DNA of 64,000 nucleotides from positions 1 to 64,000 of IMG/VR virus record IMGVR_UViG_3300031753_000004; one strand, written 5' to 3'. This stretch comes from a virus. How positions within the stretch are numbered: position 1 is the stretch's first letter; every line of letters begins with the position of its first letter. Positions 37,544 through 44,669 of the stretch are shown here, piece by piece. The notes under the pieces were generated by a model, which was not told the DNA's origin, did not search any database, and saw only the letters and a program-made list of their open reading frames with translations. A program made the translations under genes and the position numbers.

Positions 37544-37603
37544 TAGTTAGACTCCTCTTCTCTGTTCCGTATGGATAAGTCCCGAGCCTCACGGCAAGGG
37601 GGT

Positions 37604-38359
37604 TTACATCGCCTCTTTCTCAGGCTCGTGCTCCTCGTCCTCACCGCCCACGTCTTGACCAGCCGTGTCCTTGCCCGACTTGTTGCGGATGGACCGCCGA
37701 TAGATGCCGCCCGTGTGCTCGGCCGTCAGCGGGAGCACGTCGGCAGACTCGTTCTCAGTCAGGCCGTAGGAACCGGGACCACCCGCAGCCAGGCCGTAGT
37801 TGGCGACCGGATAGCTCTCGTCGAGGTAGTCTTCATTGGCCGTGGGGATCAGGCTCACAAGCAGGCGCAGCTCGCTGAGGTCCTTCTGCATGAATTGGTT
37901 GCCGATGGCTTGGCGGTCCTCGGGACGGACGTTAGTGATGAGCCTGGTGACGAGTTTGATCTTCTGCTCACGCACGGCTCGCAGGTTCTCCCTCGCCGCC
38001 TCCTTCACCGGGGCCGGTACGTTGGGGTCGTTGAACCAGGCGTTCATCACCGCGCGGGAGTTGCCCTTCGGCCCGTCCTTTTTCTCGATCTTGACCCCTT
38101 GCTCGTCGTACTCGTCCTCAATCTCCTTGTGCTTCTTGCCCTCGTCATCCACGGCTTGCCCCTGCTCGGGCTTCTCCTCGGTCATGACGTTGGTCTTAGC
38201 ATTGCCCACCGGAGCCTTGGCGATTTCCCCGAGCAGGCGCTTGAGTTCGTCGTCGCTCATCCGGTTGTAGGCGAGCTTGTCCTGCTCGCACGCGCAGTTG
38301 GCGGTCAGGAGCCGGAGCGCCTGCCCTCTGCTGTATCCGACTGTTCCGAAGTTAGGCAT
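37604..38359 (-). CDS. nested in-frame scaffold protein (internal start MPNFG)
   Basis: GGAACAGGAGACCACC-ATG, a strong internal RBS resembling those of other structural genes. Confidence 0.55.
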   Translation of the reverse strand: MPNFGTVGYSRGQALRLLTANCACEQDKLAYNRMSDDELKRLLGEIAKAPVGNAKTNVMTEEKPEQGQAVDDEGKKHKEIEDEYDEQGVKIEKKDGPKGNSRAVMNAWFNDPNVPAPVKEAARENLRAVREQKIKLVTRLITNVRPEDRQAIGNQFMQKDLSELRLLVSLIPTANEDYLDESYPVANYGLAAGGPGSYGLTENESADVLPLTAEHTGGIYRRSIRNKSGKDTAGQDVGGEDEEHEPEKEAM

Positions 38360-40039
38360 GGTGGTCTCCTGTTCCTGATTTCCGATCATCGACGCTTGAT
38401 GCAGACTCGCCGCCTTCCGGTGAAGCGCTGCCGCGTTATCGTGTTGGTCCGCTGTATTGGGGTCTTTGTTCTTGCGTGCATCCGTGGCCGCGTCCTCATG
38501 GGCCTCGGCCGCCTTGGTGTGGAAGCTGGCCGCCTTCTTGCTATTGCCTTCCTTGCTATGGTCCACTGCTGCCAGCGCCGGCTCGCGCGCCGGGGGATGC
38601 TCTGCCATGAGCGATGCACCAGCGGCTTGCTTGCTGGCGTCGTGCGCCGGTGGCACTGGGGGCGGATTGAACTGACTAGGCGGTCCCATAGGTATCCCCT
38701 GTGGTGCTTGGTTGTGTGCGCTCAAAGTGCTGATGTCCCCACCACTGCCACCGCCCAGTGTTGCTCCGGAGCTACCACCTCCAGCCCCACCAGCGAAGTT
38801 GTCCTCCAGAGCATCCTTTGCTTTGCCGCCCTTGAGCGCGGTTTCGTTCATCTTGTTCCACTCGTCGTTCGTGAGGTCGGTCTCATGGTGGGTCTCGGCA
38901 GGAGGCTTGGGATTGCCTGGGACGTACTGTTGATCTAGTGCCAGAGGCTTCTCGGGGTGCTCATCTCCGTACCAGCCTCCGTAGCCATCCTTCGCGGCCT
39001 CATGCACGTCGCCCTTTCCTGTTCCGGCCCCGTGTTCCATGTACTGCCCCGTCTCTGGGTGCTGAGGGTTGCCGTACTTGCCGGCGTTGACGCTGAACCA
39101 ATCCATGAAGCGCTCGAGGAGAGTCTTGGGCATGGCATTAACGGCAGGACTATGGGCTTTTGCAGCAGCCATGTGAAGTTCCGCCGCCTTGGTGTGTAAT
39201 GCTGCCGCCGCCGGGTAGCCCATCTCGGTTTCCCTAGCCGCTGCTGCCGTATGGAGCTTGGCCGTGTCCTCGTGGGCTGCTTTAGCAGACCCATGCTGCT
39301 GCTTATCCGAAGCCATCAGCGCGTGAGTTGATGAGCGAGCGGTGTATTCGGCATCGACGTTCGTCTTGGCTTTGTCTAGCTTGTGGCTATCTGCCTCCAT
39401 CGTTGCTTGATGGGCATGTTTGGTAGCCGTACTAGGACGAGGCCCAGACCCAGGACCACCGTTCACCATCACCCCGCAACCCTGCTCGTTGGAACAAGCG
39501 CCCTTCTGGTCGGGAAGTATGGCGATGTGATCGGGGCGGTAGTTGCGCGCCGTGAACTCATAGGGGGTGCCGTTGTGAGTGGTGCCTTCCGGCACCGCTT
39601 CGTTGTCTGTGAAGAGCCCGGTCGATAGTTCAATGGGCTTGTTCTTGAGCAGGCGCGGCAGAATTGGCTCAACGCCGCGATTCACCAGCTTGTTGTCTAC
39701 CTGTCGCGTCTTCTCTTCATCGAACCAGCCTTCGCTGAGCATCTTCCCGTTGATGTGCGTCTTCCGGTTAAAGCCGATGCCCCAGTTCTGGATGATGCCG
39801 GGGTCGCGCGCGGAGACATGCCTACCCTGAGAATCGGTAGGATGCCACACCACCAAGGGCATGTAATCCCATGCCTTGTAGCTGTTGCGAGTCTCGCGCT
39901 CTGGGTAGAACAGCGGCCCCTGGCTGCCGTGTAGCACGCCGTTCAGCGGCAGAAGAGACATGGGGGCGACAAGGAAGCTGCGGCCGTTCAGAGTTTCACG
40001 CCGTACCTTGCCAGCCAGGTTGACCGAGAAAATCTCCAT
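37604..40039 (-). CDS. DUF2213-family prohead protease fused to inserted modules and scaffold
   Basis: VLHG..LFYP, PLVVWHP, IELSTGLF, RNYRPDHIAILPDQKGACS..GCG. Confidence 0.85.
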   Translation of the reverse strand: MEIFSVNLAGKVRRETLNGRSFLVAPMSLLPLNGVLHGSQGPLFYPERETRNSYKAWDYMPLVVWHPTDSQGRHVSARDPGIIQNWGIGFNRKTHINGKMLSEGWFDEEKTRQVDNKLVNRGVEPILPRLLKNKPIELSTGLFTDNEAVPEGTTHNGTPYEFTARNYRPDHIAILPDQKGACSNEQGCGVMVNGGPGSGPRPSTATKHAHQATMEADSHKLDKAKTNVDAEYTARSSTHALMASDKQQHGSAKAAHEDTAKLHTAAAARETEMGYPAAAALHTKAAELHMAAAKAHSPAVNAMPKTLLERFMDWFSVNAGKYGNPQHPETGQYMEHGAGTGKGDVHEAAKDGYGGWYGDEHPEKPLALDQQYVPGNPKPPAETHHETDLTNDEWNKMNETALKGGKAKDALEDNFAGGAGGGSSGATLGGGSGGDISTLSAHNQAPQGIPMGPPSQFNPPPVPPAHDASKQAAGASLMAEHPPAREPALAAVDHSKEGNSKKAASFHTKAAEAHEDAATDARKNKDPNTADQHDNAAALHRKAASLHQASMIGNQEQETTMPNFGTVGYSRGQALRLLTANCACEQDKLAYNRMSDDELKRLLGEIAKAPVGNAKTNVMTEEKPEQGQAVDDEGKKHKEIEDEYDEQGVKIEKKDGPKGNSRAVMNAWFNDPNVPAPVKEAARENLRAVREQKIKLVTRLITNVRPEDRQAIGNQFMQKDLSELRLLVSLIPTANEDYLDESYPVANYGLAAGGPGSYGLTENESADVLPLTAEHTGGIYRRSIRNKSGKDTAGQDVGGEDEEHEPEKEAM

Positions 40040-40375: not shown

Positions 40376-40667
40376 CCGGCACTTGCGAGTAGTGCAAGTC
40401 GTCATGATGGAAAAGCGGCTGACGTTTAGCAGCCCTCTCCTCCAGTACACGGATCTTTGCTTCGGTCCCAGGGATAGCTCTCACCGGCCACGTAGGGACC
40501 GTGCTCATCTCCCCGCCGTAGTCGTTGCATCGTTCGCCTTTGCATGACTTGGCGACTCGTGGATACAGCACGCGAATCTCAACGCGCCGGTAGCAGCGCC
40601 AGCACAGGCCGCGTGACTCGGTTCCGGGTAGTCTCCGGCAGTGGCGGCAGTAGGGGATGGTGTTCAT
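40356..40667 (-). CDS. small Zn-binding hypothetical protein
   Basis: CRHC...RGLCWRCY...PGTEAKIRVLEERA...LFHHDD. Confidence 0.7.
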   Translation of the reverse strand: MNTIPYCRHCRRLPGTESRGLCWRCYRRVEIRVLYPRVAKSCKGERCNDYGGEMSTVPTWPVRAIPGTEAKIRVLEERAAKRQPLFHHDDLHYSQVPDEEPTD

Positions 40668-43600
40668 AGGATTCCCTCCGGCGCATCGCTGGCCTCGAAG
40701 TCATCTAGACTCTTGGCTCCAGACTTCTCGGCAGCTTCCTCAATGTCTTCCTTGGTTCGCTTTTGATCTGAGTCGTCTTCGCCCACGTTGGCCGGCAAAA
40801 ATGCGCATCTACAGTTCACGTGCGCCGGGATCATTCCGTGAGCATCATCGATGCTTAGCACAACCCCTTCCATCGGCGAACATTCTTCGCAATTATGGAC
40901 AAGCACACCATTAGCGTAAAACTCCTCTTCATCTTCCACCTGGATGTTGTAGACTGGAAGTGGAATACCAAGCAGTGAATGACCTATTACATCGCTTTCA
41001 GTCAAGAGAGCATAACAATGCCGTTTGAGTTCACGTGCCCCACTTGCAGCACAAGTTTTTATCGACGCACTAAGGGACTCTATCGTGGAGTGAAGAAGCG
41101 CTATTGCTCGTTCGCGTGTTCCCTCAAAGGCAGGAGGGAGGGTGGCTTTAAGTTCGTCTGCGACCAGTGCGGCAAGACATTCAAGAGTCATACTGCGACT
41201 CAAAAGGCCTCCTGCTCTCGCCGGTTCTGTTCCCATCGGTGCTATTCGCTGGCCCGCCGCAATGGTGCCGAACATCCTTGCCCGATTTGTGGGAAGAAGA
41301 TCCATCGGTGGGCTAGTTCTATCGTCAAAGGCGATCGGCGCTTCTGCTCCAGATCTTGTTACGAGTCCTCTAGGCAAAACGAGGTCGCTAAGGTCTGCCT
41401 CGGCTGCGGTAAGTCCTTCACTGTCAATGGCTCTACTTCCGACCGATACGCATATTGTTCGGTCAAGTGCCGGGTCAAAACCAAGGGAGGCGAATACAGA
41501 CGGTGCCGGTCCTGCGGAAAGCGAATCCTTTTGGGCGGCTGTGATAAACGCCGTGGCAATATGAGGAAACATTGCTCCGAAGAGTGTCGCCGTCCTCCAG
41601 TTATCCAGAAGTGCGTCACCTGCGGCACTGAATTTAGGAGAGTTCCATCCAACACCAAGAGGCGCTTTTGCTCGTTCGCTTGCTACCGTCGCTCGCGCCA
41701 TGAAACCTCTCTTGAGCGAATGGTACGGCTCGCACTTGACAGGCTCGGCATCGCTTACATCCAAGAGGCACGAGTCGGCCGGTTCTCTGTGGACTTCTTG
41801 CTCCCACACACGATGGTCGCTATTGAGGCCGACGGCACCTACTGGCATCGAAACACCGAGAGGGACGCCAGGAAGAATACGTGCCTCTCCCGCTTGGGAT
41901 GGCGCGTCTACCGAATCACCGAAGCGGAAGTTAATAATGCCAAGGATGTCGGCAAGCTCATTTCCGACCGTCTGCAATGTCTGTTCTAACCGAAGTTTCC
42001 CGGCCGCTGTCCATCCTTGTTCCGAAGTCCAGAACGGGTGATTGGCGGTCGATGTGTTCCTGCCGACCGCTGTGAGTACGGTCGTCATCGGTCCTTCGTA
42101 GTCTCTCACGAACGTCTTGAGAACCGCACGCCAGCCGCCTCTTGTCCTCACTTTCATGCCGACCAGTATGTCTTGGATCGGCACTTCGCCTTCCTCCGTC
42201 TCGACCAGAGTCCACGCTGGAAAACACACATGGTCGTCCCCTGCCGTGCTCCACTCGACCGCTACGCCGACCTCTTGCACTCCCAGGTCTTCCATTGCGT
42301 CAAGCTGCCCTTCGGCGTGGGCTCGGATAATCTCCGTGCGTGCAACCGCTTCCGCCCTCACCTCCGAAAATCCAACCTCGTCCTCCAGGTCGCCAGCAAT
42401 CTCCAAGGGATGCTTTCCTTGCACTAATCCATCTGTGAGGGCTCTGCTGCACTTATTCGACATATCCTCCGTCACGTTCTTCAGCTCATCGAACGTGCGG
42501 TCAGCCAGAAGCCGCACTTTCTCAATCGACTCCGGCTGCGCGAAAGACGACCGCAGGAACTCTTCGCGCGTGCCCCGGTAGAAGTCGCTCACCGACTGTT
42601 GCGCCTCAGCCGTGAATAGCTCGGGATGCTCCTTGCCCAGCTTGGACATTCGCACATCGTCAAACGCTCTGCCGGCGCCTTTGGCGAAGCCTTCTTGGAT
42701 GTATCGCTTCCAGCGCTCCTCTTCGGTTTCGTTGCTGATGAGGGAGAACGTCTGCCGCTTGAGCCACGCCTGGAATGCCTTCACCTTGTCGGTGGGATCG
42801 TGGAACATCCAGCGGGTGTTGACTACCAGCGAGTATGTTCCTTCGACGTGGCGGAAGGGAACCTCAACGGTTCTGAACTCTCTGGCGTTGGTAGTCAACA
42901 TCGGCTTCGGATGCTTCTCGTACAAGTCGTGCGCCAGGTCAATAGCCTGCATCACCCCGCCCGTCTCGTCCAATGCCGCCGACAAGAGAGCGTAGTACCA
43001 ATCGTTGAACCCGTGCGCCTCGAGCGCCATAGCCACGGTCGCAGCGTTCTCTTGCTCCGAGTTGTGGATGAGGTATCGCTTGACACCACCGCTCACCTTG
43101 CCGGCCGCCTCTTTGACGAGCCCGGTAGCAGCACGGATTGTGGCCAGCGGATCGCGGGCCGTCGAATACGCCAGATATCCCACCGAGGCCACAGGCAGAG
43201 TCCCGGTCACTAGCGCGGGCAGATGGGCCGCATGGACGCCTGCTATGGCGCTGAACTTAAACGCCTCGAATGTGCCGAGGTCGATCTTGCTGAGCACCCC
43301 TCGGAGTTGCTTGGCCTGCTCTGGAGTATGGCCACGCTCTCGCGCTGTCCTCTCGGCGAGCGCCTGCGTGGACGTGAAGACTGCGAACGCGGCAGAGATC
43401 CCCATCTTGCCGGCGTAGGCTAGCGGGCCGTAGGTGGCATTCACCGCGTGGGGTAAGTGATCTGGCAGGCTTGATACCGCTTTACCAATGCCGTCTGCTG
43501 CGTAGGACTTGGCAAGGTGCTCGATATGGGCAGCGCCGGTGCCTACTGCCTTCAGGCCGGTAAGCATGCCGGAGAAGGAGATCCTACCTTCGCCTTCAAG

Positions 43601-44545
43601 AGAACCGAACTCGCCGCCTTCGCCCCATCTGCCGTGTTCGTCGCGGGGCTGGTCTGGGCTCCAATTCCGAATGACTTGATCCCTGATTGGCATTCCTGTT
43701 CCGCTGCCACCTATCCAATGCTTGAAGGCCGACATGGTGACGGCCTTCATCCCGTCGAACCCGGTCCAGCCCTCCGAGTAGTTATCGTGATAGGCTTTCT
43801 TGGCGTCCTTCGCATTCGTGAAGCCGACCATGCACTTGTGCTCGTCGAACGTACCGTCCTGCCGCTTCTGGTCGATGATGAACACGACCTCGCTCTCTGG
43901 GTGCGGACCTAGAAACACGTCCACATGGTCACCGTCCGCCTCGCTCTCAGTCCTCTTGATGTAGCCGTAGTGGTGGGCCATTCGCTGGACGTAGCTCTTG
44001 CCCCGGCGAAGGTTGCCGGCCGCTACCTCTATGGTGATCGGAAGCCCCTGGACCGTGACATGGCCCTTGCGGTAGTTGCCCGCCTCTTTCTGCTCGGGTG
44101 ATGGGTCGGGGTCGGCCTCACTTGCTGCCGCCTCAATCGCCGCTCGTAGATCGCGGTTTACCGTAAACGGCTCTCGCTCCTTCAGCCCGAAGGCGTCCTC
44201 GTCCACCAAAAGCTTGACGATCCTACCCTTGAGGAGCGCAAACTGCCGCTTGATCTTGGCACAGAACGCCCGGCGCATCGTCACAGTTTTTGTCGGATCA
44301 AGGCGCGATGCCTTGACGCTCGGCTTCTTCTTGGCCTTTTTGTTGGCGCGGAGTTTCAGCTTGTTTGTGGCGATGCGGTTCGGTTTGCGCTTGGGGAGCT
44401 TCTTGCCCTTTGGAGTGTGCTCCTCCCAGCGCTTGGCCATAGCGGGATCGTTGGCGTGCATCCATGCGCGCTGTTTTTCAGATACAAACGGGTTCACCGT
44501 CAGGGCGTTGGCCGTCGGTCGGCGCTTCTTGGGTCGGACTTTCAT
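40664..44545 (-). CDS. MuF/SPP1 gp7-family minor head protein, modular, with InPase domain and an intein
   Basis: DPTKT..MRR, YIQEGFAKG, RAEAVARTEIIRAHAEGQL, WSTAGDDHV|C..C, IPAHVNCRCAF; start at MKVRPKK. Confidence 0.9.
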   Translation of the reverse strand: MKVRPKKRRPTANALTVNPFVSEKQRAWMHANDPAMAKRWEEHTPKGKKLPKRKPNRIATNKLKLRANKKAKKKPSVKASRLDPTKTVTMRRAFCAKIKRQFALLKGRIVKLLVDEDAFGLKEREPFTVNRDLRAAIEAAASEADPDPSPEQKEAGNYRKGHVTVQGLPITIEVAAGNLRRGKSYVQRMAHHYGYIKRTESEADGDHVDVFLGPHPESEVVFIIDQKRQDGTFDEHKCMVGFTNAKDAKKAYHDNYSEGWTGFDGMKAVTMSAFKHWIGGSGTGMPIRDQVIRNWSPDQPRDEHGRWGEGGEFGSLEGEGRISFSGMLTGLKAVGTGAAHIEHLAKSYAADGIGKAVSSLPDHLPHAVNATYGPLAYAGKMGISAAFAVFTSTQALAERTARERGHTPEQAKQLRGVLSKIDLGTFEAFKFSAIAGVHAAHLPALVTGTLPVASVGYLAYSTARDPLATIRAATGLVKEAAGKVSGGVKRYLIHNSEQENAATVAMALEAHGFNDWYYALLSAALDETGGVMQAIDLAHDLYEKHPKPMLTTNAREFRTVEVPFRHVEGTYSLVVNTRWMFHDPTDKVKAFQAWLKRQTFSLISNETEEERWKRYIQEGFAKGAGRAFDDVRMSKLGKEHPELFTAEAQQSVSDFYRGTREEFLRSSFAQPESIEKVRLLADRTFDELKNVTEDMSNKCSRALTDGLVQGKHPLEIAGDLEDEVGFSEVRAEAVARTEIIRAHAEGQLDAMEDLGVQEVGVAVEWSTAGDDHVCFPAWTLVETEEGEVPIQDILVGMKVRTRGGWRAVLKTFVRDYEGPMTTVLTAVGRNTSTANHPFWTSEQGWTAAGKLRLEQTLQTVGNELADILGIINFRFGDSVDAPSQAGEARILPGVPLGVSMPVGAVGLNSDHRVWEQEVHREPADSCLLDVSDAEPVKCEPYHSLKRGFMARATVASERAKAPLGVGWNSPKFSAAGDALLDNWRTATLFGAMFPHIATAFITAAQKDSLSAGPAPSVFASLGFDPALDRTICVSVGSRAIDSEGLTAAEADLSDLVLPRGLVTRSGAEAPIAFDDRTSPPMDLLPTNRARMFGTIAAGQRIAPMGTEPARAGGLLSRSMTLECLAALVADELKATLPPAFEGTRERAIALLHSTIESLSASIKTCAASGARELKRHCYALLTESDVIGHSLLGIPLPVYNIQVEDEEEFYANGVLVHNCEECSPMEGVVLSIDDAHGMIPAHVNCRCAFLPANVGEDDSDQKRTKEDIEEAAEKSGAKSLDDFEASDAPEGIL
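40892..42226 (-). mobile_element. intein (445 aa) in the MuF V-C-x-x-C motif
   Basis: Block A CFPAWTLV, block B TSTANHPFW, block F PVYNIQVE, block G YANGVLVHN followed by extein Cys. Confidence 0.93.
41018..41989 (+). CDS. zinc-finger-repeat DUF559/Vsr-like endonuclease nested antisense within the intein
   Basis: Six CxxC...(F/Y/H)CSxxC units, then ETSLE...QEARVGRFSVDFLL...IEADGTYWH...RD.RKN..L...GWRVYRITE; AAGAGAG before ATG. Confidence 0.9.
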   Translation: MPFEFTCPTCSTSFYRRTKGLYRGVKKRYCSFACSLKGRREGGFKFVCDQCGKTFKSHTATQKASCSRRFCSHRCYSLARRNGAEHPCPICGKKIHRWASSIVKGDRRFCSRSCYESSRQNEVAKVCLGCGKSFTVNGSTSDRYAYCSVKCRVKTKGGEYRRCRSCGKRILLGGCDKRRGNMRKHCSEECRRPPVIQKCVTCGTEFRRVPSNTKRRFCSFACYRRSRHETSLERMVRLALDRLGIAYIQEARVGRFSVDFLLPHTMVAIEADGTYWHRNTERDARKNTCLSRLGWRVYRITEAEVNNAKDVGKLISDRLQCLF

Positions 44546-44669
44546 TTCTTGTCCTTGAGCAGGTCCCGTATCTGCCGCAGATAGGCGGAGATGTTGCACA
44601 GAACCAAGAATGACAACACGGCCAGGGTCGCCTTTGCCCACTCATCAAGCAGGTTTTCGTATGCTCCAA

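What the first reader, a model, noticed from the sequence alone, without database searches (positions are those of the whole stretch)
40892..42226. Intein whose endonuclease is a separate gene on the opposite strand (dual-coding composite mobile element)
Seen: the MuF gene carries a 445-aa intein with canonical splicing motifs (CFPAWTLV, TANHPFW, VYNIQVE, LVHN|C) inserted at the conserved DHV|CEEC site. The central ~330 aa, where a LAGLIDADG or HNH domain normally lies, resemble no domain on the sense strand. That segment is the reverse complement of a complete plus-strand gene (41018-41989, 323 aa, own RBS-like AAGAGAG) encoding six CxxC...CSxxC zinc fingers and a DUF559/Vsr-like PD-(D/E)XK nuclease. 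The two frames are in codon register and both are open for 972 nt. Established: intein homing endonucleases are normally in-frame domains of the intein. Inference: a free-standing endonuclease occupies the intein loop in antisense, its antisense translation is removed by protein splicing, and it may drive homing while being expressed independently of the late MuF transcript. Caveat: in-register antisense frames stay open easily in GC-rich DNA, so openness alone does not prove selection.
Basis: partly seen in the sequence, partly recalled or inferred. Interest (0 to 1): 0.92.

Follow-up and report, generated by a model that had tools for sequence, protein, structure and literature searches.

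The report
Intein with antisense homing-endonuclease gene
A self-splicing protein insert (intein) in a phage head-assembly gene carries its DNA-cutting "homing" enzyme as a separate gene on the opposite strand, codon against codon; the layout is real and kept by selection, but a 2025 preprint already describes it.

Summary
The minus-strand MuF-family gene (40664-44641) holds a 445-aa class-1 intein (40892-42226). Inside it, on the plus strand and on the same codon triplets, lies an intact 323-aa gene (41018-41989) for six zinc fingers plus an EDxHD/Vsr-like nuclease. Its best solved match is I-Bth0305I (3R3P).

For this window alone, chance openness is not negligible: 0.4% by codon model, 4% empirically in this phage. 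The family settles it. Of 72 non-redundant relatives of the nuclease, 45 have zero in-register antisense stops. These include AT-rich loci where 7-19 stops are expected. 43 of the 45 sit between intein halves.

The nuclease frame is the conserved one. Identity is 44% against 23% over the same codons in 43 of 43 comparisons. In one close pair dN/dS is 0.35 against 1.09.

The kind is already in print. Gosselin, Arsenault and Gogarten (bioRxiv 2025) report full inteins with antisense VSR-like endonucleases in actinophages. They cite antisense LAGLIDADG cases from 1998 onward. This scan has also met the same layout on other DNA.

Splicing, expression and homing remain untested. Verdict: a real, well-supported new member of a known kind.

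The parts
40664..44641 (-). Host gene: MuF/SPP1-gp7-family head-morphogenesis (minor capsid) protein precursor, 1325 aa. It has an InPase domain (aa 183-310) upstream of the MuF domain.
   Evidence: ORF. Pfam InPase E 8.8e-47 and Phage_Mu_F E 2.2e-9 (aa 731-806). PHROG head-morphogenesis families.
42227..44641 (-). N-extein. It ends ...EWSTAGDDHV.
   Evidence: It aligns to Hardycor1 MuF up to ..TTAGDRRVC306.
40892..42226 (-). Class-1 intein, 445 aa. It has Cys1, TxxH in block B, and a terminal His-Asn followed by Cys+1.
   Evidence: In the 30-intein alignment A2, C1, T60, H63, V443, H444 and N445 are invariant. The AF2 model matches solved inteins and BIL domains at Z 16-19, for example 6RIZ (gp41-1 intein) at Z 18.4, rmsd 1.5 over 123 residues.
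41912..42226 (-). HINT N-lobe (intein residues 1-105, blocks A and B). Its last 26 or so codons (41912-41989) are also the 3' end of the nuclease gene.
   Evidence: pLDDT 93-97 and beta strands. Hint_2 hit at aa 805-843, below the cut-off.
40967..41911 (-). Intein insert encoded antisense to the nuclease gene (intein residues 106-420). No recognisable domain.
   Evidence: Residues 107-342 have pLDDT below 50. Residues 339-419 are predicted helices at pLDDT 62-85 that match only generic helical hairpins at Z<=8.8. No Pfam hit. Identity to relatives over these codons is 23%, against 44% in the plus frame.
40892..40966 (-). HINT C-lobe (intein residues 421-445, blocks F and G: VYNIQVEDEEEFYANGVLVHN).
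   Evidence: pLDDT about 95. Conserved in A2.
40664..40891 (-). C-extein. It starts CEECSPMEG... and contains HVNCRC.
   Evidence: It aligns to Hardycor1 MuF from C306 on.
41018..41989 (+). Free-standing homing-endonuclease gene, 323 aa plus stop. An in-frame ATG at 40979 would add 13 aa.
   Evidence: Met14 aligns with the Met-Pro start of relatives (nearly invariant in A1). 134 relatives at E<=1e-3 among 1120 candidates. It is a single copy in the 72,096-bp phage record.
41036..41683 (+). Array of six CxxC...C(S)xxC zinc-finger modules, the presumed DNA-recognition part.
   Evidence: Regex. Six hairpin-plus-helix units in the AF2 model, mean pLDDT 85.4. Only weak resemblance to polydactyl zinc-finger arrays.
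41702..41968 (+). EDxHD/Vsr-like (DUF559, MTES_1575) nuclease domain carrying D272, E283, D285, H290 and D296.
   Evidence: Pfam. phmmer against 3R3P gives E 3.5e-6. Foldseek against 3R3P gives E 3.9e-7, TM(target) 0.82, rmsd 2.2. Vsr 1CW0 gives TM(target) 0.55. The residues are invariant or nearly so in A1.
41004..41010 (+). Shine-Dalgarno-like AAGAGAG, 7 nt before the ATG at 41018. On the minus strand the same bases encode part of the intein's 'LLT'.
   Evidence: Nine relatives carry (A/C)GGAG or AGGA at the same place. The 'LLT/LLS' motif is conserved in the antisense peptide in A2.

Best explanation
This is a composite selfish element. A class-1 intein is inserted at the conserved ..DD(H/R)V|C..C site of a phage MuF-family head protein. 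Its homing-endonuclease slot is filled by a complete, separately translated nuclease gene on the opposite strand, on the same codon triplets.

Shown:
- the anatomy;
- that the nuclease frame is the conserved one;
- that the host frame is kept free of stops across many divergent relatives.

Inferred:
- The 1325-aa precursor is translated straight through the antisense stretch, mostly as a disordered loop.
- The two HINT lobes fold, excise the whole 445 aa and ligate the MuF exteins.
- The plus-strand gene is expressed from its own signals, against the direction of almost every other gene of the phage.
- Its zinc-finger array recognises the intein-less MuF allele and its EDxHD/Vsr-like domain cuts it. 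Repair from the intein-bearing copy during co-infection then copies intein and nuclease gene together.

The in-register antisense frame is the one arrangement that costs the nuclease no amino acid. Antisense stops correspond only to TTA, CTA and TCA, and each of these has synonymous alternatives.
For: Anatomy.

Intein:
- C1, TxxH and HN|C are invariant in 30 aligned inteins.
- The HINT lobes have pLDDT 93-97 and match solved inteins at Z 16-19.
- The exteins are contiguous in an intein-less MuF.

Nuclease:
- DUF559 and MTES_1575 score above their Pfam cut-offs.
- 3R3P (I-Bth0305I) is the best match by sequence (E 3.5e-6) and by fold (TM 0.82).
- The catalytic and zinc ligands are conserved.

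Recurrence:
- Of 72 clusters (80% identity) built from 93 IMG/VR loci plus the window, 45 have 0 in-register antisense stops over the whole nuclease ORF. The other two antisense registers have 6-17 and 5-40 stops. The 27 other clusters have 1-30 in-register stops.
- 43 of the 45 have N- and C-HINT profile hits flanking on the minus strand.
- Hosts are MuF-like and portal genes.

Selection:
- Stops expected from each locus's own extein codon usage range from 0.5 to 18.8. In AT-rich loci P(0) falls to 1e-5 to 1e-15. The summed log10 P is -102 over 42 loci.
- Plus-frame identity is 44% against 23% for the minus frame over the same codons, in 43 of 43 comparisons. Differences peak at the plus-frame third positions.
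- In the one close nested pair, L075/L080, dN/dS is 0.35 in the plus frame and 1.09 in the minus frame.

Expression signals: an SD-like element sits before the Met-Pro start here and in nine relatives. Exact TATAAT lies 6-7 nt before the ATG in four relatives.

Independent description of the kind: the bioRxiv preprint.
Against: - No experiment or read data bears on splicing, on transcription of the plus strand or on cleavage.
- The window's own Hint hits in Pfam are below the gathering cut-offs (19.4 against 35.8 bits; 19.3 against 28.4 bits).
- No sigma-70-like promoter was found on the plus strand upstream of the nuclease gene.
- The window's SD is a weakened AAGAG rather than AGGAG.
- For this window alone the open antisense frame could be chance (4% of comparable windows in this phage).
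So 45 of 72 overstates how common nesting is in the whole family.
- The clusters are related, so the summed P is not a product of independent events.
- The nuclease tree is poorly resolved (10 of 69 inner branches starred). Co-inheritance of intein and nuclease as one unit is therefore not shown.
- dN/dS rests on a single pair.
Confidence: 0.8

Rival explanations
1. The nuclease gene is a silent relic. A free-standing endonuclease gene once landed in a mini-intein and passed a 'filter on arrival' because its antisense frame happened to be open. It is no longer expressed or active, and the intein now behaves as a fixed mini-intein with a long junk loop.
For: No promoter was detected on the plus strand. 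The SD here is degraded to AAGAG. In this phage 4% of comparable windows are open by chance. One non-nested relative, L025, also has 0 antisense stops. The preprint notes that some VSR-like cases look vertically inherited.
Against: The ORF is intact over 323 codons, with every invariant or near-invariant catalytic and zinc-ligand residue of the family. The fold is confidently predicted. Plus-frame conservation exceeds minus-frame conservation in 43 of 43 comparisons. dN/dS is 0.35 in the one close nested pair. A filter on arrival cannot explain AT-rich nested loci with 7-19 expected stops.
Confidence: 0.1
2. The antisense nuclease is active but is not the intein's homing enzyme. It could act in phage-phage competition by cutting rival genomes elsewhere. 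Alternatively, its convergent transcription could mainly regulate the late MuF message. In either case the intein merely offers a tolerant landing pad.
For: Free-standing relatives with no intein nearby are common: 20 of the 27 non-nested clusters have no HINT hit. In the tree they interleave with nested ones. The gene is transcribed head-on against the long block of minus-strand genes around it.
Against: The same nuclease family is tied to inteins in four layouts: antisense, same-strand out-of-frame, fused or split, and in-frame. It always occupies the canonical endonuclease slot. Portal-intein nucleases form one clade (SH-aLRT 99), as expected if nuclease and target co-evolve. The nearest solved relative is a proven homing enzyme according to the PDB title and Taylor 2011 (listing only).
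Confidence: 0.07
3. The host gene is functionally 'fractured'. The two halves would be made as separate proteins and joined by trans-splicing, as in the Dassa 2009 loci, and the continuous frame would be incidental.
For: Vsr-like endonuclease genes sit between split-intein halves in 12 of the fractured-gene loci described by Dassa et al. (passages read). L007 and P0061 among the relatives look like that type.
Against: There is no stop anywhere in 1325 codons. The frame is stop-free in 45 clusters against strong expectation, and that openness would not be maintained if read-through were unnecessary.
Confidence: 0.02
4. Chance: a spurious long ORF on one strand of GC-rich DNA.
For: The neighbouring gene 37604-40039 has a 443-codon in-register antisense open run.
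Against: The plus ORF has family, fold and residue conservation. The minus ORF has intein lobes and MuF exteins on both sides. The recurrence holds across GC 0.30-0.68.
Confidence: 0.01

Closest known systems
'Non-canonical' inteins with an antisense VSR-like homing endonuclease in actinobacteriophages (Gosselin, Arsenault, Gogarten, bioRxiv 10.1101/2025.01.02.630785). I read the abstract, section 15 and passages of sections 3, 8, 12, 14, 19 and 28. I did not see the supplements.
   Same: A full (unsplit) intein with a separate VSR-like endonuclease ORF on the antisense strand in the endonuclease slot. Minor capsid (MuF-type) proteins are among the hosts. The sense translation of the slot is unstructured in AlphaFold models. 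The endonuclease matches 3R3P (EDxHD) and Vsr. The origin is explained as invasion of an intein by a free-standing endonuclease gene.
   Different: Their set is cultured actinophages from PhagesDB, and they call the form rare. The window is an uncultivated 72-kb phage of unknown host. Its nearest nuclease relative is on a contig binned to a Dehalococcoidales MAG.

I found no statement in the text I read about the fixed codon register, the TTA/CTA/TCA depletion, AT-rich cases, portal hosts for the VSR-like type, or a same-strand out-of-frame VSR-like form. Their supplementary table might cover some of this.
Antisense LAGLIDADG endonuclease ORFs in inteins (Synechocystis DnaX intein; Chloroflexus SpoVR-like protein). 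Gorbalenya 1998 and Gogarten 2002, as cited in the preprint; I did not read them.
   Same: A contiguous intein whose endonuclease is an ORF on the opposite strand.
   Different: A different nuclease family (LAGLIDADG) in cellular genes. I have not examined those sequences.
'Fractured genes': split inteins with a free-standing Vsr-like or GIY-YIG endonuclease gene between the halves (Dassa et al. 2009, PMC2677866; passages read).
   Same: Phage genes, a mini-intein invaded by a free-standing Vsr-like endonuclease gene, and endonuclease expression signals brought in with the gene.
   Different: There the host gene is broken into two ORFs. 'Antisense', 'reverse' and 'complementary strand' do not occur in that text, and of the 3 uses of 'opposite' the one shown concerns charges. 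Here the host frame is continuous and the endonuclease is antisense.
I-Bth0305I, the EDxHD homing endonuclease of a group I intron in recA of Bacillus phage 0305phi8-36 (PDB 3R3P; Taylor 2011, PMC3239194; search listing and abstract start only).
   Same: The catalytic domain by sequence (E 3.5e-6) and by fold (TM 0.82). tblastn also hits that phage's 'mobile intron protein'.
   Different: It is intron-encoded, not intein-associated. The N-terminal DNA-binding part differs: here it is six tandem zinc fingers.
Canonical bifunctional inteins (for example PI-SceI, PI-PfuI) with an in-frame LAGLIDADG or HNH domain.
   Same: The HINT fold and the position of the endonuclease slot (Z 11-17 to 1JVA, 1DQ3 and 2CW8).
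   Different: There is no in-frame endonuclease domain. The nuclease is a separate polypeptide from the other strand.

Membership tests
Intein (class 1, HINT superfamily) | N-terminal nucleophile Cys1 and block B TxxH | tested here: met
   CFPAWTLV... and TANH. C1, T60 and H63 are invariant in 30 aligned inteins.
Intein (class 1, HINT superfamily) | C-terminal His-Asn followed by a Cys/Ser/Thr +1 extein residue | tested here: met
   VLVHN|C. V443, H444 and N445 are invariant.
Intein (class 1, HINT superfamily) | HINT fold formed by the N- and C-terminal lobes | tested here: met
   AF2 lobes at pLDDT 93-97. VIA-align gives Z 19.1 to 2LWY, 18.4 to 6RIZ and 17.5 to 2IMZ, with rmsd 1.4-1.6 over 123-127 residues. 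Pfam Hint_2 and Intein_splicing hits exist but are below the cut-offs.
Intein (class 1, HINT superfamily) | In-frame insert at a conserved host site, with the exteins contiguous in intein-less homologues | tested here: met
   In Hardycor1 MuF the N-extein alignment ends at C306 and the C-extein alignment begins at the same C306.
Intein (class 1, HINT superfamily) | Protein splicing activity | not testable with these tools
   Needs expression of the precursor.
EDxHD / Vsr-like homing endonucleases (I-Bth0305I type). The name 'EDxHD' is taken from the preprint passage and from recall. | Sequence and fold of the catalytic domain | tested here: met
   3R3P by phmmer at E 3.5e-6. Foldseek at E 3.9e-7, TM(target) 0.82. 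DUF559 and MTES_1575 are above their Pfam cut-offs.
EDxHD / Vsr-like homing endonucleases (I-Bth0305I type). The name 'EDxHD' is taken from the preprint passage and from recall. | Conserved acidic and His residues of the active site | tested here: met
   D272, E283 and H290 are invariant. D285 and D296 are at least 90% conserved in 23 sequences. All are present in the window's protein. Assigning them to catalytic roles is inference.
EDxHD / Vsr-like homing endonucleases (I-Bth0305I type). The name 'EDxHD' is taken from the preprint passage and from recall. | Site-specific cleavage of the element-free allele (homing) | not testable with these tools
   Needs an enzyme assay or a phage cross.
Inteins with an antisense-encoded homing endonuclease (Gosselin et al. 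2025 'non-canonical' type C) | A contiguous intein ORF with a complete endonuclease ORF on the opposite strand inside the endonuclease slot | tested here: met
   The same holds in 43 related clusters with HINT halves on both sides.
Inteins with an antisense-encoded homing endonuclease (Gosselin et al. 2025 'non-canonical' type C) | The sense translation of the slot has no recognisable fold | tested here: met
   Residues 107-342 have pLDDT below 50. Helices 339-419 find only generic matches at Z<=8.8. No Pfam hit.
Inteins with an antisense-encoded homing endonuclease (Gosselin et al. 2025 'non-canonical' type C) | Actinobacteriophage origin (the scope of the published set) | not testable with these tools
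   The window is an IMG/VR virus record with no host named. Nested relatives lie on contigs labelled Dehalococcoidales, Anaerolineales, Clostridia, Methanothrix (MAG bins), Streptomyces alboflavus and Gordoniibacillus kamchatkensis.
Fractured genes / split inteins (Dassa 2009) | The host gene is broken into two ORFs, each carrying an intein half | tested here: not met
   The frame is a single open one of 1325 codons.
Canonical LAGLIDADG or HNH inteins | An in-frame endonuclease domain between blocks B and F | tested here: not met
   No LAGLIDADG, HNH or other Pfam hit at E<=0.1 in aa 890-1220 of the sense protein.

The most novel reading that the evidence does not exclude
For this zinc-finger/EDxHD nuclease family, nesting inside a continuous intein may be a main way of life across very different phages rather than a rare accident. 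It is seen at GC 0.30-0.68, in MuF and portal hosts, and on contigs labelled Chloroflexota, Bacillota and Actinomycetota. The antisense cases always use the single codon register in which antisense stops can be avoided by synonymous codons alone.

The nuclease gene's own expression signals are imprinted on the intein's loop peptide. Examples are an AGGAG that reads as 'LLT' on the other strand, and TATAAT directly before the ATG in some relatives.

The same nuclease also occurs in a same-strand +2-frame nested form (4 clusters) and in an apparently in-frame form (L109). I did not find either reported for VSR-like endonucleases in the text I read. Together these would form a series linking free-standing genes to canonical in-frame inteins.
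Probability: 0.45. Interest if true: 0.55.

Novelty: new member of a known kind. Interest (0 to 1): 0.4.

Why it matters
It is a clean natural case of about 970 bases that encode two proteins on opposite strands. One reading frame is under ordinary protein-level selection. The other is selected only to stay open, apart from about 25 codons where folded parts of both proteins overlap.

It bears on how inteins acquire endonucleases. The family offers free-standing, split, antisense-nested, out-of-frame-nested and in-frame states of one nuclease side by side.

It also matters for annotation. Gene callers keep only one strand, so either the head gene or the nuclease goes missing. In Mycobacterium phage Donovan, for example, the annotated gp58 lies on the strand opposite the nuclease match.

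Because the architecture is already in a preprint, the value here is confirmation, quantified selection and wider distribution, not discovery.

Tried and rejected
Expression data. The look-up of sequencing runs on window 40600-42600 listed no run and no RNA holder. This is no evidence either way, and read laying was therefore not used.

Promoter.
- The sigma-70 scan of 40500-42500 found one site, on the minus strand only. It found no terminator.
- Reading 40780-41040 by eye gave nothing convincing.
- An extended -10 pattern search gave nothing on the plus strand upstream of 41018. There were 39 matches window-wide against 55 expected.
- The host, and so the promoter type, is unknown.

Tree of 72 nucleases (quick IQ-TREE). 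Only 10 of 69 inner branches are starred. The portal-intein group (8 clusters) and the same-strand group (4 clusters) are each one clade. MuF-type nested and free forms interleave: 16 changes, of which only 2 are forced by starred branches. I draw no conclusion on the number of origins or on co-inheritance.

dN/dS. Only three pairs fell between 60% and 99.5% identity, and dS was saturated in two of them. One usable nested pair remained.

Named phages.
- tblastn of the nuclease against 50,697 phage records gave 20 records, all below 60% identity: 17 Mycobacterium, 2 Bacillus 0305phi8-36 and 1 Microcystis MaeS.
- MaeS has the nuclease annotated on its own strand, apparently free-standing.
- No named phage carried a close copy of this MuF intein. 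Of 93 records matching the MuF segment, none covered 80% or more of it.

Literature. Seven searches:
- intein + homing endonuclease + opposite strand;
- fractured genes;
- intein + antisense strand;
- inteins + DUF559 (1 irrelevant paper);
- intein + MuF (nothing relevant);
- reverse orientation;
- inteins + phage + portal + actinophage (this one found the preprint).
Kelley 2016 (PMC5050341) has no 'opposite', 'antisense', 'reverse' or 'free-standing' in its text. Supplements of the preprint were not available, so I cannot say which of my extensions its tables already contain.

Rejected readings: chance ORF, fractured gene and in-frame endonuclease (see the rival explanations and the membership test).

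Complex prediction, the protein-atlas search, the search of protein representatives, metagenome contigs and the RNA tools were not used.


Full report
WHAT IS THERE

The window belongs to a complete 72,096-bp uncultivated phage record with direct terminal repeats. Between about 3.3 kb and 62.8 kb the long ORFs taken as genes lie on the minus strand.

The minus ORF 40664-44641 encodes a 1325-aa protein. It has an InPase domain (aa 183-310, E 8.8e-47) and a Phage_Mu_F domain that stops abruptly at aa 806 (E 2.2e-9). PHROG head-morphogenesis families also hit it.

From aa 806 to 1250 (window 40892-42226, 445 aa) runs an insert. It begins with Cys, carries TANH, and ends VLVHN followed by Cys. Its Pfam Hint_2 and Intein_splicing hits are below the gathering scores.

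The fold evidence is clear. In an AlphaFold model built on 30 aligned inteins, residues 1-105 and 421-445 have pLDDT 93-97. They superpose on solved inteins and BIL domains at Z 16-19, for example the gp41-1 intein 6RIZ at Z 18.4, rmsd 1.5 over 123 residues.

An intein-less MuF exists in Halorubrum phage Hardycor1. It aligns to the N-extein up to ..TTAGDRRVC306 and to the C-extein from the same C306 onwards. The insertion point V|C is therefore exact.

THE OTHER STRAND

The plus ORF 40979-41989 (336 aa) has its family start at the Met-Pro of 41018, which gives 323 aa. It encodes six CxxC...C(S)xxC modules and a C-terminal nuclease domain.
- Pfam: MTES_1575 and DUF559 are above their cut-offs.
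- Best solved relative by sequence: 3R3P, the catalytic domain of the homing endonuclease I-Bth0305I, at E 3.5e-6.
- By fold: 3R3P at Foldseek E 3.9e-7, TM 0.82; Vsr 1CW0 at TM 0.55.
- D272, E283 and H290 are invariant and D285 and D296 nearly so in 23 relatives. All are present here.
- The gene is a single copy in the phage.

The codons of the two strands coincide exactly. The nuclease gene occupies intein residues 80-403. So its last 25 or so codons (41912-41989) lie opposite well-folded strands of the HINT N-lobe, and the rest lies opposite a stretch that is predicted disordered. Residues 107-342 have pLDDT below 50. Residues 339-419 are predicted helices that find only generic matches.

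IS THE DOUBLE OPENNESS MORE THAN CHANCE?

For the window alone the answer is only moderately so. From this phage's codon usage, 5.1 TTA/CTA/TCA codons are expected in the nuclease gene, giving P(0)=0.004. But 4.0% of 323-codon windows in the phage's long genes are open in that register, and a neighbouring gene has a 443-codon run.

The family decides the matter. I fetched 93 IMG/VR loci encoding relatives. The second set is the best 80 of 382 confirmed relatives, so it is biased towards the query. I clustered the nucleases at 80% identity into 72 clusters including the window.
- In 45 clusters the in-register antisense frame has no stop across the whole nuclease ORF and runs on into the flanks.
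- The other two antisense registers of the same ORFs have 6-17 and 5-40 stops.
- The remaining 27 clusters have 1-30 in-register stops.

The 45 span GC 0.30 to 0.68. Using each locus's own extein codon usage, the expected number of stops is 0.5-18.8. In AT-rich loci P(0) reaches 1e-5 to 1e-15. The summed log10 P over the 42 loci with enough extein codons is -102 (3 loci were left out). The clusters are related, so this figure is indicative only.

A 'filter on arrival' cannot produce stop-free nuclease genes in AT-rich phages, so the frame is being maintained there.

Profiles of the N- and C-lobes find both halves flanking on the minus strand in 43 of the 45 clusters. L025 has none and L071 has only N hits. 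Thirty of the 43 contributed to the profiles, so for those the match is circular. Pfam independently shows Hint or Intein_splicing in 5 of 6 host ORFs tested, with MuF or portal domains named in 4 of the 6. The flanks read as canonical junctions.

WHICH FRAME IS THE GENE?

Over the same aligned codons, the window's plus frame is 44% identical to the 43 other nested clusters and its minus frame 23%. The plus frame is higher in 43 of 43 comparisons. Differences are most frequent at plus-frame third positions: 0.65, against 0.46 and 0.40. In the only close nested pair (L075/L080), dN/dS is 0.35 for the plus frame and 1.09 for the minus frame.

Expression signals also look selected. Nine relatives have (A/C)GGAG or AGGA 8-11 nt before the ATG. 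The window has AAGAG at the same place. These bases read 'LLT' in the intein, a motif that stands out in the otherwise unconserved loop. Four relatives have an exact TATAAT 6-7 nt before the ATG. In the window itself I found no plus-strand promoter.

HOW IT MOST LIKELY WORKS

Shown: the anatomy, the conservation and the maintained open frame.

Inferred:
- The precursor is translated through the antisense stretch.
- The HINT lobes excise all 445 aa and rejoin the MuF motif ..AGDDHV-CEEC..
- The nuclease is made separately from the plus strand.
- It recognises the intein-less allele with its finger array and cuts it, so that repair copies intein and nuclease gene together.

The in-register antisense frame is the cheapest solution, because TTA, CTA and TCA all have synonyms. 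That fits the fact that every antisense case uses it.

WHAT IS KNOWN

Dassa et al. 2009 described Vsr-like endonuclease genes between split-intein halves, with no mention of antisense ORFs. The bioRxiv preprint of Gosselin, Arsenault and Gogarten (version of 20 Oct 2025) reports, among 784 actinophage inteins, 63 with non-canonical endonucleases. [quoted passage not shown] It reports an HHpred match to 3R3P and unstructured sense translations. It cites antisense LAGLIDADG inteins from Gorbalenya 1998 and Gogarten 2002.

The window is therefore a new member of a described kind. Earlier notes of this scan had met the same layout on other DNA. One of them carried the 'filter on arrival' caution that I addressed above.

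WHAT MAY GO BEYOND THE PREPRINT

This is subject to its unseen supplements.
- The fixed codon register and the quantified depletion.
- AT-rich and portal-gene cases.
- Nested copies on contigs labelled Dehalococcoidales, Anaerolineales, Clostridia and Methanothrix (MAG bins), and in the isolates Streptomyces alboflavus and Gordoniibacillus kamchatkensis: 7 nested of 39 loci classified, out of 55 fetched.
- Four clusters where the same nuclease is nested on the same strand in the +2 frame of an intein.
- One locus (L109) where it appears to be in frame.

VERDICT

The novelty is modest. Splicing, expression and homing are untested.

Noticed in passing
L063:2599-5334, L082:1-1824, L087:2803-5115, L093:2608-5184 (all + strand): The same zinc-finger/EDxHD nuclease gene lies on the SAME strand as an intein-bearing host ORF, in its +2 frame. 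The host frame has 0 stops over the nuclease ORF, and N- and C-HINT hits flank it. The four nucleases form one clade (SH-aLRT 89). In the text I read, the preprint reports same-strand out-of-frame nesting only for an EndoVII-like endonuclease.
   Followed up: partly
L109:2790-4016 (+), Eubacteriales MAG contig: The N-HINT hit, the nuclease-domain match and the C-HINT hit are all in one frame of one long ORF. This looks like a canonical in-frame intein with an EDxHD/Vsr-like domain.
   Followed up: no
L007:4005-6820 (+); protein P0061: An intein N-lobe is fused in frame to the nuclease, which then stops. In L007 the C-lobe follows in a separate overlapping ORF. This resembles the 'fractured gene' or split-intein state of Dassa 2009.
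   Followed up: partly
L054:3809-5836: An N-HINT hit on the minus strand abuts the 3' end of a plus-strand nuclease gene, but the in-register antisense frame has 15 stops and no C-lobe was found. It may be a decayed or split antisense case.
   Followed up: no
L096 (Mycobacterium phage Donovan, NC_023552.1) 2417-3205: The nuclease match is on the strand opposite the annotated gp58 'hypothetical protein'. The locus sits between two methyltransferase CDS pieces (gp60 and gp57). The annotated gene may be the antisense shadow of an unannotated nuclease gene inserted in a methylase gene.
   Followed up: no
L027, L047, L060, L008, just upstream of the nuclease ATG: An exact TATAAT (TGTTATAAT, TGCTATAAT, TGATATAAT, GGATATAAT) ends 6-7 nt before the nuclease start codon. 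This suggests a promoter for a leaderless or near-leaderless mRNA inside the intein coding sequence.
   Followed up: no
window 37571-38938 (+) opposite 37604-40039 (-): A 455-aa plus-strand ORF lies in codon register opposite the 811-aa Ala/Gly/Lys/Glu-rich head protein. Long in-register antisense ORFs arise without any nested gene in this phage, which is a caution for single-locus claims.
   Followed up: partly
window 43712-44095 (-), aa 183-310 of the MuF protein: An inorganic-pyrophosphatase-like (InPase, PF18823, E 8.8e-47) domain sits N-terminal to the MuF domain, as in polyvalent phage and plasmid proteins.
   Followed up: no
window 40970-41212 (-), intein residues 339-419: The part of the antisense-encoded loop opposite the first zinc fingers is predicted as long helices at pLDDT 62-85. 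The window's intein is the longest of the 30 aligned and has extra sequence here. Only generic helical matches were found.
   Followed up: partly
L098 (contig binned to an uncultured Dehalococcoidales MAG, 64,472 bp): This is the closest relative of the window's nuclease in the genome collection (51% identity). It is nested in the same way in a MuF-type gene. That is a weak hint that this phage lineage infects Chloroflexota.
   Followed up: no
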